Source: Octopus sinensis (lineage: Eukaryota). Taken from it: a stretch of 64,000 bases of DNA. The DNA is taken from the NCBI RefSeq assembly GCF_006345805.1, contig NC_043017.1, forward strand, positions 12,400,001 through 12,464,000. Direction: 5' to 3'. Within the stretch, counting starts at the first letter, position 1, and each line of letters opens with the position of its first letter. This document shows positions 6,040 to 51,568 of the stretch, piece by piece. The notes beneath the pieces are model-generated. The model was not told the DNA's origin and made no database searches. It worked only from the letters and a program-made list of their open reading frames with translations. A program made the position numbers and the translations under genes.

Positions 6040-7289
6040 CAGGGTTGGATAAAATAATGGAAACACCTATAAATTTCAAACAAATTTATGTTAATATGGG
6101 GTTCGACTGCCTTTGGCAGTGATTACAGCTTGAATTCTACGAGGTATGGTCTCGTACAAAGTTTGATTGTTTCCACAGGGATTTTTGTCTATTCTTCAGC
6201 TAAAACAGGCTCCAGTTCTTGTAGTGATGATGGTGGATGATATCGACACTTTACTTGTTTTTCTAAAATGCACCATAAATGTTCAATAATATTGAGATAT
6301 GGGGACTCTGGTGGTTAGATAAGATGTTCAACTTCACTAGAATGTTCCTCGCGCCATTCAGTAACAAGTTTTAGCTGTGTGAATTGGTGCATTATCACCC
6401 TGAAAGATTGCGCTTCCCGCCGGAAACAGTTCCACAACCATAGGATGAATTTGATCAGATGAAATTCTTAAATAGTCTTGACTATTAATTCTGCCGTGAA
6501 AGGAAATCATTGGGTCAGCGGATTTCCAAGATATAGCCTCCCCCCCCCCGAGCCTCACAGATCCTCCTCCATGTTTAACAGTGGGAAGAAGGCAGTCTGG
6601 GTCAAATGATTTTTTTTGGCTGTCTCCACACGTATATTCGGCCGATGGTCGGAATTAAAGTAAAGGATGACTCGTGCGAGAAAATAACATTCGTCCGCTG
6701 CTCTTGGGACCAATTCTGTAGGTTTTTACTCACTCTAAACGCTTTGCAACGTTTGTTTTTGAAAGTGGTGATTTTCTGGTTGCAGTCCTCCCGTGAAATC
6801 CAGCTTTGCGCAGCTCCCGGCGAACAGTTTTTGTGGTAACTGGGTTCTCGAGGTGGTCATTAAGCTCTACAGTAATTTTGGGAGCTATACTTTTGTGATC
6901 CTTTCTAACAATTCGCGTAAGAGTTCGACGGTCCCTACCTGAAAGTTTTGGTTTTCTTCCGGAGTTTTGTTTCGACGAGGAGGTTTTCCCTCTTCCTCAA
7001 AGGCTGTCATTACTTTCGAGACAGAACTTCTAGATACACCAAACATTTCGGCTGTTTTCGTTACGCTAGCGCCTGCCATACGAGCACCAACAATTTGACC
7101 TCTTTGAAAGTCCAATAGATCTGTCATTTTAATGAATTTTAATTACCTTTTTCTGATGATATCTGAAAAGAAACTGCAATTTTAGCGAAAACATATTAAG
7201 CAACACTAATAATAAATAAAAAATAAACAAACTTTTGACGGTTTTATAGATATTTCAAAATTATGATGATATGATGCTAGGTGTTTCCA
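6040..7289 (-). mobile_element. Tc1-family DNA transposon, degenerate
   Basis: Left TIR CAGGGTTGGATAAAATAATGGAAACACCTA (6040-6069); partial right TIR TAGGTGTTTCCA (7278-7289); encloses a transposase pseudogene. Confidence 0.9.
6091..7127 (-). pseudogene. Tc1 DD34E transposase pseudogene (frameshifted)
   Basis: N-terminal HTH MTDLLDFQRGQIVGARMAGASVTKTAEMFGVSR; catalytic-region motifs VIFSHESS (first D lost), TVKHGGG, FQGDNAPIH, SPYLNIIEHLW; ends TPY*; several frameshifts. Confidence 0.92.
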
Positions 7290-17511: not shown

Positions 17512-17692
17512 TTTATTACTGTTCTTATTTTAACTGATGTCCATTGTCCGGAAATCTTTCGTCACACATCTGTGACCTCTTCAGCGGAGCAGGAGCATAC
17601 ACGAGGTCAGAAAGTGTAGCTGAAGAGGTCACAAGTGTGTGACGAAAGATTCCCGTACAATGGACATCAGTTAAAATAAGAACAGTAGTAAA
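17512..17692. mobile_element. Palindromic element with a hammerhead motif in each arm (probable inverted Penelope-like pLTR pair)
   Basis: ~74-bp arms (17512-17585 vs 17619-17692) are reverse complements; each reads CTGAAGA-G-GTCACA-n4-TGTGAC-GAAA-GATT. Confidence 0.7.
17547..17588 (-). ncRNA. Minimal type I hammerhead ribozyme motif
   Basis: UCCG-CUGAAGA-G-GUCACA gaug UGUGAC-GAAA-GAUU-UC-CGGA: stem I 4 bp, stem II 6 bp, 1-bp stem III with a near-palindromic loop. Confidence 0.7.
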
Positions 17693-17914
17693 CGAGTGGA
17701 GAACGAATAAATAGTGTGTGTGTGTGTGTGTGTGTGTGTGTTTATTTGGCAAAGACGAAAAAAACAAAAAACAAAATGGCCGTCCCGAAATATAACAATA
17801 TATGTTTCAACACACGGTTTCACATCAGGAACCTTGCGACACAAATTCATAAACCTACACACACACACGCACCCCCCACCCCCCCACACACACATACACA
17901 CACACACACATATA

Positions 17915-20886: not shown

Positions 20887-20924
20887 GTCTTAACGTTTCG
20901 GATGCAGGTCCTTCATCAGAAAAA
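20887..20924 (-). ncRNA. Minimal type I hammerhead ribozyme motif with canonical core, inside a short element (~20800-20940)
   Basis: UUUU-CUGAUGA-A-GGA ccugca UCC-GAAA-CG-UU-AAGA; palindromic AACGUU at stem III. Confidence 0.65.
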
Positions 20925-49118: not shown

Positions 49119-49888
49119 TAGGCGTGGCTGTGTTGTAAGAAGTTTGCTTCTCAGCCATATATTTTGGTCCAGTCCCACCGTGTGACACCTCAGGTAAGTG
49201 TCTTCTACTATAGCCTCTGGGCAACCAAAACCTTCTGAGTGGATTTGGTAGACAGAAGCTGAAAGAAGCCCATTGTATATATGTATATATATTTGTGTGT
49301 GTATGTGTCTTTATATTTGAGTTTCTTACCTACCACTGTTTAAAAAGTGGTTTATATCCCCCGTAACATAGCAGTTCAACAAAAAGAGAATGACAAAATA
49401 AGTACCAGGCTTGAAAAGAAAATAAATACTGGGTTCCATTTGTTCAACTAAATCCTTCAAGGTAGTGCCCCAGCATGGCCACAGTCCAATGACTGAAACG
49501 AGTAAAAGATAAAAGTTAGTCCACTTATGCATACCTTTCCTTCTTTGGACACAAAACTCTGCTTGTGAAGACCTGTTGAGGCAGGTGAAATCGATCAAAA
49601 AATCAATGGAAATTGCAGTTGTGATATCAGTGTCGGTGGCACGTAAAAGGCACCATCCGAACGTAGCCGTTGCCAGCACCACCCTGACTGGCTTCTGTGC
49701 AGGTGGCACGTAAAAAGCACCCACTACACTCATGGAGTGGTTGGCGTTAGGAAGGGCATCCAGCTGTAGAAACACTGCCATATCAGACTGGAGCCTGGTG
49801 CAGCCTTCTGGCTTCCTAGACCCCGGTCGAACCGTCCAACCCATGCTAGCATGGAAAATGGACGTTAAACAATGATGATGATGATGAT
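49119..49888 (+). mobile_element. SINE family A (49119-49510) followed by SINE family D (49520-49888)
   Basis: Similarity to other copies; (GAT)n tail at 49872-49888. Confidence 0.8.
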
Positions 49889-50196
49889 TAGCTCTGAGTG
49901 ACAGAAGCAGCTTTTAGTAATGAATATTACTAAGCACAGCTAACTTAACTTGGAAGTTTTGTTTTAAATGCCATAAGCTGCAGTAATTGCTCTGAGTAAT
50001 CTCTGCATGTAGACATTAAGTGCTAAAAGGCACTGATTATATCAACAGATGAAATTTCCTCAACACCTGTGCAGGGACTGTTCTGTCACATGGTCATGGC
50101 ATAATTTGTGCTTCTCGGCAACAAGCACCAATCATGGAATGTGTTAAACTGTATTGGTTTGACAGAAATTTTGCTCTGGCATTCAATGATCAGCAC

Positions 50197-50249
50197 CTGA
50201 TGCTGAGGAGGTACAAATTATACTGAAATCACGTCATGTGATACAAGAG
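50197..50249 (+). ncRNA. Full-size type I hammerhead ribozyme core in unique DNA
   Basis: CUGAGGA (50203-09), stem II GGUA/UACU, GAAA (50225-28), stem III UCAC/GUGA, UA (50242-43); stem I weak (CUGAUG/CAAGAG, 2+2 bp). Confidence 0.6.
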
Positions 50250-51568
50250 TCCATCCACCAGTACTGACGAAATTTCATTTAATGATATAATCTTTGCTTA
50301 TTAAGCTCAATGCCAAAATGAGATGGTTTCTCAGGACGGTTACCTCAGCTTTTGGGGTTTTTAAAACAATACATTCAAAGTTAAATTCTATGTAAAATTG
50401 TTTGTATGTGTATACATAGCAATTTGACTCATGTCCATGAAGGATAGACCCATCTCTTCACATATGAGGTAAAGAGTAAGGGATCTAGGACAATTTTAAG
50501 ATTGCTTGTAGATGTCAAGCCCCTAATGGTAAAGTCAAAGGTGTTGATGTTGGTGGCATCAGAAGTCTGAATGGTGTGTGTTTGGCAGTTGTGGTGGTGA
50601 TGGTGATGGTTGAAAACAATCAACAGAAAGAGAGAAAGAGGTTAGACAGAAAATAAAATTGTACTGATCCCTGAATGGGGTCAAATAGGTGAGGTAGAAT
50701 CTGCACAAACTCCTCTGAGATTCCAGAAACATCGCTGACAATGCACCCTAGATAAGATATATCTTATCCTAAAACTTACATATCATCATCATCATCAAAT
50801 AATGTCCATCTTCTATGCTGGCTTGGGTTGGATGGTTTGGCTCAGCTGGTCAGCCTGGGGACTGTGCCAAGCTTCCCTGTCTGCTTTGGAATGGTTTTTA
50901 CAGCTGGATGCCCTTCCGATATATTATGAGTGGTGCAATTAATGTCCCAGGTGATGGTTAATTACACACCAGAACCAGACAGCTTTATATATATATATAT
51001 AGTCTTTATAAAGGCTATCATTTATTTTGGTTTCTATCATTAAATATTCATTAATAACCATAACCAATCAATATCCATTATATGTCATAGGTGCAATCAT
51101 AGACAAGTGTTTTAAGAAGTTCACTTCACAGTCATGAGTCACCAGGTTCAATCTTTGCTCATGACTGCTTGGGTGGTTGAGTTGTTTTTTTCGGGGTTTT
51201 TTTTTCCCCCCTACAATAATGTTTCTGGGGAAAAAGTGGGTTGACAGAAGCAACATAGGAGCCTGGTGGCTGGATTGTTCCTGCAGTTCATAGTATCAGC
51301 TTTGTTGTATGTCTAGCCATGATGATCAGATTTAAGGAATACATGGGGGGAACACATGCCTGTGGAATATTCAACCACATACATTATTATTCAATGACAA
51401 CGTATGAAAAATTAGTCCCAATGGTTGTTGAATAATTGAGACTCATGTTGATACTGTCAGATGATTGATGATTTATTATGTGTGTGTGTGATGTATGTAT
51501 ATATATGTGTGTATATATATAATATAATGTGTTATGTATGTACATATATATATATAATGTGTTATGTA

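What the first reader, a model, noticed from the sequence alone, without database searches (positions are those of the whole stretch)
49890..50420. Full-size type I hammerhead core embedded in a unique, repeat-free island
Seen (+): CUGAUG-CUGAGGA-GGUA caaauua UACU-GAAA-UCAC gucau GUGA-UA-CAAGAG (50197-50249). All invariant core nucleotides are present, with a proper 5-bp stem III and an AUA cleavage triplet. The 10.1-11.1 pair is G-U (plausibly from CpG decay) and stem I is only 2+2 bp around an internal loop. Unlike the other motifs it needs no dimer, has no extra base after CUGANGA, and does not lie in a recognisable repeat. Known: single-copy intronic or UTR HHRs have been domesticated in amniotes. 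Inference: either an old retrozyme/PLE relic or an exapted regulatory ribozyme in a host intron.
Basis: partly seen in the sequence, partly recalled or inferred. Interest (0 to 1): 0.75.

Follow-up and report, generated by a model that had tools for sequence, protein, structure and literature searches.

The report
Dead hammerhead retrozyme relic, two-armed
The self-cutting-RNA motif is real, but it is one worn copy of an old, dispersed 343-base jumping repeat that was likely pasted in as a mirror-image pair by Penelope-type enzymes, and the matching copy in a related organism has a changed catalytic core, so it is likely a dead relic rather than a tamed regulator.

Summary
The motif at 50197-50249 is as described, but the island is neither unique nor repeat-free. 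It is a decayed inverted pair (49887-50399, junction 50141) of a family held here at 58 other loci (lower bound). The family unit is a 343-bp head-to-tail monomer with one canonical type I hammerhead: helix I 6 bp, helix II 4 bp, short palindromic helix III, compensatory changes between subfamilies. Arm 3' ends pile up at two sites 36 nt apart and 5' starts are scattered, the Penelope 'tail' signature; this copy has one end of each kind. Its 5-bp stem III comes from a 5-nt duplication seen in 1 of 66 copies, and two substitutions break helix I. The motif has decayed like the rest of the arm (7/48 vs 44/202, p=0.32). The orthologue in organism E has C3U and a broken helix II (one contig). Verdict: relic of an apparently extinct non-LTR retrozyme family; new member of a known kind; exaptation not supported. 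The scan earlier reported other, younger octopus retrozyme families with the same insertion pattern; none matched this sequence. Cleavage and expression are untested.

The parts
49887..50399 (.). whole two-armed (head-to-head inverted) insertion of the 343-bp retrozyme family
49887..50141 (-). left arm: 5'-truncated monomer, circle positions 284 to 197 (position 1 = first base after the predicted cut); ends at the family's long fixed end
   Evidence: 204/253 identical to the family majority
50141..50399 (+). right arm: 5'-truncated monomer, circle positions 246 to about 156; ends a few bases short of the family's short fixed end (about 161)
   Evidence: 199/250 identical to the family majority
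49887..49923 (-). about 36-nt 'tail' (circle 161-197), present on the left arm only
50197..50249 (+). type I hammerhead motif: core intact, helix I with two mismatches (50199.50247, 50200.50246), helix II 4 bp incl. G.U, loop 2 CAAAUUA, helix III 5 bp
50233..50237 (+). 5-nt insertion in helix III, read as a tandem duplication of 50230-50234 followed by one C>T; no other copy has it
   Evidence: 1 of 66
50243..50244 (+). predicted cleavage site (after AUA), the register kept across the family
50067..50135 (-). mirror hammerhead homologue in the left arm; core broken (U4C, 1-nt deletion, GAAA lost)
   Evidence: 18.1 bits
49630..49888 (+). unrelated younger, high-copy repeat abutting the left end and ending in (ATG)n; reading it as an octopus SINE is recalled, not tested
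   Evidence: (mostly 75-89% identity to copies in other loci), depth

Best explanation
The island is a decayed, two-armed copy of a 343-bp non-coding tandem-monomer repeat with one canonical type I hammerhead per unit (a non-LTR retrozyme), likely copied from a self-cleaved, probably circular RNA by a Penelope-type reverse transcriptase/endonuclease, and its hammerhead is likely no longer functional. Shown: the monomer length and head-to-tail continuity, the hammerhead fold across the family, two fixed 3' ends 36 nt apart with scattered 5' starts, one end of each kind in this insertion, clock-like decay of both arms, a 5-nt duplication that lengthened helix III, two substitutions that broke helix I, and loss of core C3 in an orthologue. 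Inferred: multimeric transcripts were cut by the hammerheads to unit length and circularised; both strands of an AT-rich target primed reverse transcription at the two start sites on the RNA; the two cDNAs were joined at 50141; no selection has acted on the motif since.
For: Monomer: the family profile overlaps itself at lag 343 (41 columns, 98%). 29 segments among 58 other loci exceed one unit, the longest 610 nt. Fold: on 53 copies 76.4% of cells pair, 54 cells change on both sides vs 34.5+-4.3 shuffled (0/500), and slid controls pair 28-48%. Ends: 19 of 79 segments end at circle 157-164 and 16 at 196-200. By eye, 8 of 9 simple two-armed insertions, this one included, have one long and one short end. 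This matches the 30-40 bp tail and inverted 5'-truncated copy of PLEs (PMC8557442) and their two adjacent RT start sites (PMC11167929). Decay: CpG sites changed 12/28 and 13/26, other sites 39/222 and 36/227; arm vs arm 148/198 identical; star-like tree (terminal branches 0.22, internal 0.025); best paralogue pair 81%. No constraint: motif 7/48 vs rest of arm 44/202, p=0.32. Orthologue in organism E has 5 listed changes in the 53-nt motif, including C3U, against about 19 in the other 386 (p=0.19). Organism B has T50239G in helix III. In the whole island the opposite arm pairs with the motif.
Against: All 11 core positions plus H17 are intact here, which holds for 12 of 53 copies overall and only 1 of 19 found with a query lacking the hammerhead. 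Helix II is fully paired although both of its CpG steps changed. Folding energies do not separate dead from intact copies: 13.1 kcal/mol to the active fold here vs 5.7-21.4 for 12 core-intact paralogues, and 10.3 for the one fully intact copy. The orthologue evidence is one contig per organism; organism C is identical to the window, and organism D's contigs leave 50231-50281 uncovered. The pair counts come from related sequences, which can beat shuffles without structure, and 'pairs with a change on both sides' does not beat them (218/500). No partner PLE ORF was identified. The two window arms are not sisters in the quick tree. The one trimer seen (L073, period about 309) shares decay changes between units and looks like later local duplication, not rolling-circle copying.
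Confidence: 0.85

Rival explanations
1. The unit is the pseudo-LTR of an extinct autonomous Penelope-like element, and the island is a heavily 5'-truncated PLE insertion rather than an independent retrozyme.
For: Tail, inverted 5'-truncated arm and partial tandems are PLE features (PMC8557442). Pairs of hammerheads 100-700 bp apart on opposite strands were linked to truncated PLEs (PMC4209133).
Against: Sequence upstream of 32 arms is shared for at most about 200 nt and wraps back into the monomer. The hammerhead has canonical helix sizes (6/4/short palindromic), as in retrozymes, not the minimal PLE type (PMC4209133, PMC7229834). Loci reach only about 1.5 kb each side, so this is not exhaustive.
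Confidence: 0.08
2. The relic was re-activated or exapted: the 5-nt duplication made helix III stable as a monomer, and the ribozyme now cuts a host transcript in the lineage of G000.
For: Core intact, loop 2 kept, helix II fully paired, helix III 5 bp; identical in organism C.
Against: Helix I has 4 of 6 pairs and the U before helix I is changed (family T 25/37, here C at 50194). There is no excess conservation. No indel is listed at 50230-50238 in organisms B and E (two indel rows were not shown), so the duplication appears to predate their split, yet E has C3U and B a broken helix III. The opposite arm would pair with the motif. No host gene was found.
Confidence: 0.04
3. The island is a palindromic MITE (non-autonomous DNA transposon) and the hammerhead match is chance.
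For: It is about 510 bp with long inverted arms.
Against: Junction and arm lengths differ from locus to locus, many copies have one arm or tandem units, and the two outer ends differ by a 36-nt tail. All hammerhead helices pair across the family, with both-sided changes.
Confidence: 0.03

Closest known systems
Metazoan non-LTR retrozymes (Cervera & de la Pena 2020, PMC7229834; mussel 350-390 bp, axolotl 330/350 bp; Li, Clavereau & Pollet, bioRxiv 10.64898/2026.07.22.740005)
   Same: Non-coding monomer of 150-450 bp, GC below 50% (0.42), one canonical type I hammerhead per unit, head-to-tail copies, self-paired predicted circle. A U.U at the base of helix II in one subfamily recalls axolotl HHR_Amex2.
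   Different: All copies seen are old (best pair 81%, apart from near-identical duplicates). No locus with two intact hammerheads in tandem was found. Copies are dispersed, mostly under two units and often inverted. Expression and circles are untested.
Penelope-like element insertions (Craig et al. 2021, PMC8557442; Frangieh et al. 2024, PMC11167929; Cervera & de la Pena 2014, PMC4209133)
   Same: 5' truncation, partial tandems, inverted 5'-truncated arm, 36-nt tail on one arm, AT-rich ends.
   Different: No RT/GIY-YIG ORF is attached, and the hammerhead is canonical rather than minimal.
Amniote intronic hammerheads HH9/HH10 (Rfam RF02275)
   Same: Type I topology; weak model match (20.6 bits).
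   Different: Multicopy and not conserved in orthologues; far below the 52-bit cut-off and matched in a different cleavage register.

Membership tests
Canonical type I hammerhead | Core CUGANGA, GAAA, UH | tested here: met
Canonical type I hammerhead | Helix I of 6 bp, in this copy | tested here: not met
   4 of 6 pairs; in the family the commonest letters pair at all 6 positions
Canonical type I hammerhead | Helix II of 4 bp | tested here: met
   G.U plus 3 Watson-Crick pairs
Canonical type I hammerhead | Short helix III with palindromic loop (family) | tested here: met
   88% of cells paired; this copy departs by a 5-nt insertion
Canonical type I hammerhead | Loop 1 / loop 2 tertiary-contact bases | tested here: inconclusive
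   loop 2 kept; 5' internal loop has U>C and a 1-nt deletion; which bases make the contact is recalled
Canonical type I hammerhead | Rfam gathering score | tested here: not met
Canonical type I hammerhead | Self-cleavage | not testable with these tools
   needs a bench assay
Non-LTR retrozyme | Head-to-tail monomer of 150-450 bp | tested here: met
   343 bp; 29 segments longer than one unit
Non-LTR retrozyme | One type I hammerhead per monomer | tested here: met
Non-LTR retrozyme | No coding capacity, GC below 50% | tested here: met
   GC 0.42; stops in the three sense frames of 6 upstream pieces; no Pfam hit on the 3 listed ORFs overlapping the island
Non-LTR retrozyme | Self-paired circular monomer | tested here: met
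   family-majority monomer folded as a circle, z -4.65 against 60 mononucleotide shuffles, a lenient control
Non-LTR retrozyme | Active array: two consecutive units with complete hammerheads | tested here: not met
   1 of 53 aligned copies fully intact; L073 trimer has broken cores; genome search is a lower bound
Non-LTR retrozyme | Expression as linear and circular RNA | not tested
   no reads were examined
Non-LTR retrozyme | Target-site duplication | tested here: inconclusive
   none evident; left flank is another repeat's tail
Penelope-type insertion | 5' truncation with inverted 5'-truncated copy | tested here: met
Penelope-type insertion | 30-40 bp tail at one end | tested here: met
   fixed ends at about 161 and 197, 35 of 79 segments
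Autonomous PLE pseudo-LTR | Contiguous RT + GIY-YIG ORF | tested here: inconclusive
   no shared non-monomer sequence upstream of 32 arms; no protein search of the flanks was run
Exapted host ribozyme (HH9/HH10-like) | Single copy | tested here: not met
Exapted host ribozyme (HH9/HH10-like) | Core conserved in orthologues beyond the flanks | tested here: not met
   one contig per organism
Exapted host ribozyme (HH9/HH10-like) | Location in a host intron or UTR | tested here: inconclusive
   no host-gene Pfam hit above cut-off in 233 ORFs of 55 aa or more

The most novel reading that the evidence does not exclude
A five-base duplication turned a fossil retrozyme hammerhead into a monomer-competent ribozyme that still cuts RNA in this lineage while it has been lost in sister lineages: a ribozyme reborn by one micro-duplication and caught during lineage-specific exaptation.
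Probability: 0.04. Interest if true: 0.6.

Novelty: new member of a known kind. Interest (0 to 1): 0.17.

Why it matters
As it stands it is a useful negative: an apparently unique, intact hammerhead in an animal genome can be a roughly 20%-diverged retrozyme copy that repeat recognition by eye misses, and an intact core survives by chance in 5-25% of such copies. The family adds one more, much older case in which a retrozyme shows the Penelope tail and two-armed insertion pattern, supporting the proposal that PLE enzymes mobilise animal retrozymes from circular RNA. If the copy did cleave, it would show how a dead ribozyme can be revived by a tiny duplication.

Tried and rejected
Rfam scan: no gathering-level hit in the window, and Hammerhead_1 absent at E<=10 around the motif. 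Alternative register with cleavage at GUC 50249-50251, suggested by the HH9 alignment: rejected because the family pairs helix I right after AUA. MITE reading: rejected. A tight pattern for young intact copies found 0; a looser 21-mer found 14. Folding energy as a test of activity: uninformative for the isolated motif. Higher conservation of core columns within the family (0.90 vs 0.75): not used, because most copies were found with hammerhead-containing queries. The L073 trimer as rolling-circle evidence: rejected. Sequencing runs: no RNA holder listed; expression and RNA ends at 50243/50244 remain unexamined. Host-gene search by Pfam on 233 ORFs: only Tc1/mariner pieces passed a cut-off. Literature on C3U with G8 unchanged: search found nothing, so its effect is recalled; PMC11167929 shows C3G and G8C abolish cleavage and PMC4209133 lists U3 only together with A8. 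Earlier-finding look-ups by place, sequence and relatives gave nothing for this family.

Full report
1. Observation. The motif is present exactly as written at 50197-50249. Core C3-A9 lies at 50203-50209 and GAAA at 50225-50228; helix II is G.U plus three Watson-Crick pairs; helix III has five pairs; cleavage is predicted after A50243; helix I has A.A and G.G mismatches in the middle. Rfam does not call it. At E<=10 only HH9 appears among hammerheads, 20.6 bits against 52, in a different register. The 53-mer does not fold better than shuffles (z -0.57).

2. The island is a repeat. A 251-base query found 27 other places in G000 at 68-86% identity. Three more searches added loci (only the best 40 candidates are scored, so counts are lower bounds). 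Of 72 loci fetched, 13 were dropped as duplicates and one is the window, leaving 58. The island matches its own reverse complement at 310/459 columns and folds as one hairpin (z -8.6). The octopus-type identity of the genome is inferred from recalled repeat content and from earlier notes on the same genome, not tested.

3. The unit is a 343-bp tandem monomer. Sequence upstream of the arms is shared for at most about 200 nt (32 arms) and turns out to be the end of the unit itself: the profile overlaps itself at lag 343. On this circle 29 segments exceed one unit, the longest 610 nt; mean identity of 79 segments to the family majority is 78% and GC is 0.42. The best pair of 54 copies is 81% identical and the tree is star-like, so the family appears extinct.

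4. The family carries a real canonical hammerhead. 66 hammerhead-spanning hits were found in 52 loci. I aligned 53 copies, leaving out the two window arms, one duplicate and copies with large deletions. With helices I (6 bp plus a 3-bp distal extension), II (4 bp) and III (3-4 bp closing a palindrome), 76.4% of 895 cells pair, 54 cells change on both sides (shuffles 34.5+-4.3, 0/500), and slid controls pair 28-48%. The count of pairs with a both-sided change does not beat shuffles (218/500), and relatedness inflates these measures. This is the architecture that PMC4209133 calls canonical for metazoans (helix I 6 bp, II 4 bp, short III with palindromic loop). A model from this alignment scores the window copy 48.7 bits and its mirror homologue 18.1; of 8 hits in four further loci, the five outside the trimer L073 score 42-74 bits and the three in it 35-48.

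5. What is special to this copy. The 5-bp helix III comes from a 5-nt insertion (50233-50237), read as a duplication of 50230-50234 with one C>T; 1 of 66 copies has it. Substitutions at 50200 and 50247 break helix I. The motif differs from the family majority at 7 of 48 positions and the rest of the arm at 44 of 202 (p=0.32). CpG sites in the two arms have changed at 12/28 and 13/26, other sites at 39/222 and 36/227. An intact core is uncommon but not rare: 12 of 53 copies, or 1 of 19 among those found without a hammerhead query. Against my reading: helix II is still fully paired, and folding energies do not separate this copy from intact ones. For the whole island the active fold costs about 34 kcal/mol in minimum energy because the other arm pairs with it.

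6. Orthologues (four runs laid, one contig each, not all rows shown). Organism C is identical. Organism B (9 substitutions) has T50239G, which breaks a helix III pair. Organism D's contigs do not cover 50231-50281. Organism E (24 substitutions, 17 gap letters over 49936-50374, both arms in place, far closer than any paralogue) has C50203T (C3U), G50211A, T50221C, A50222T and G50233A: 5 in 53 against about 19 in 386, p=0.19. There is thus no sign of constraint, and an invariant base is lost. That C3U with G8 unchanged cripples cleavage is recalled; PMC11167929 shows it for C3G and G8C. No indel is listed at the duplication in B or E, so it appears older than their split. Arm-to-arm divergence (148/198 identical) against about 5.5% to organism E makes the insertion roughly four to five times older than that split (rough inference).

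7. How it got there. Arm 3' ends cluster at circle positions 157-164 (19 of 79) and 196-200 (16 of 79), while 5' starts are spread round the circle. Query choice biases the null, but not towards two single positions through which many longer copies run. By eye, 8 of 9 simple two-armed insertions have one long and one short end (L003, L016, L039, L044, L046, L060, L074 and the window; L011 is the exception); complex loci and those with an eroded end were not counted. The window's left end is the long one and its right end the short one. PLE insertions are described with 5' truncation, partial tandems, an inverted 5'-truncated copy and a 30-40 bp tail (PMC8557442), the tail being the stretch between two internal RT start sites (PMC11167929). 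I infer that a PLE enzyme copied a hammerhead-cut, probably circular, 343-nt RNA from both strands of an AT-rich target. No partner ORF was identified. The one trimer seen is a later local duplication.

8. Host context. No ORF of 55 aa or more in the window (233 scanned after a low-complexity filter) hit a host-gene Pfam family above its cut-off; intronic location is undecided. Expression and RNA ends were not examined.

9. Known or new. It works like, and by the features tested is a dead member of, the metazoan non-LTR retrozymes. Searches for 'hammerhead ribozyme' + 'octopus', 'retrozyme' + 'cephalopod', and Penelope/hammerhead terms showed no description of this family. PMC7229834 has no occurrence of 'octopus' or 'cephalopod' in its main text; its supplements, which show further invertebrate retrozymes, were not read and may bear on this. 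The scan's earlier notes describe other octopus retrozyme families (about 470-590 nt) with the same insertion pattern; none matched this sequence. Papers seen: PMC4209133 parts 1-2 of 4; PMC7229834 parts 2-3 of 6 and passages; PMC8557442 passages only (12 of 20); PMC11167929 parts 1-2 of 4; bioRxiv 10.64898/2026.07.22.740005 part 1 of 5 and passages; no supplements.

10. Verdict. Real hammerhead homologue, wrong context: a decayed two-armed retrozyme insertion. New member of a known kind; interest 0.17.

Noticed in passing
window 17512-17698: A second palindromic element with a hammerhead-like core (CUGAAGA...GAAA) in each arm, hairpin z -11.5. It belongs to a much larger and younger family (2430 first-look candidates in G000, arms up to 99% identical).
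   Followed up: partly
window 20896-20919 (-): CUGAUGA...GAAA with an extra base and a short helix II; no helix I or III seen in the fold.
   Followed up: no
window 6733-7142 (-): Decayed Tc1/mariner transposase pieces (HTH_Tnp_Tc3_2, E 2e-13).
   Followed up: no
L062, L064, L068, L032, L053, L067: A subfamily with a U.U or similar mismatch at the base of helix II and switched pairs in helices I and II; it supplies much of the covariation.
   Followed up: partly
L073 1033-2094 (G000:C9): Three tandem units with a period of about 309 bp sharing core-breaking changes: local duplication of an already dead copy.
   Followed up: partly
window 49887; L003 1298; L048 1501; L002 1742: Several element ends abut (ATG/CAT)n runs of another repeat; shared preference for ATT-type sites or nested insertion.
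   Followed up: no
window 49887-50399: If transcribed, the 450-bp, 68% complementary hairpin would be a candidate substrate for A-to-I editing (inference; not tested).
   Followed up: no
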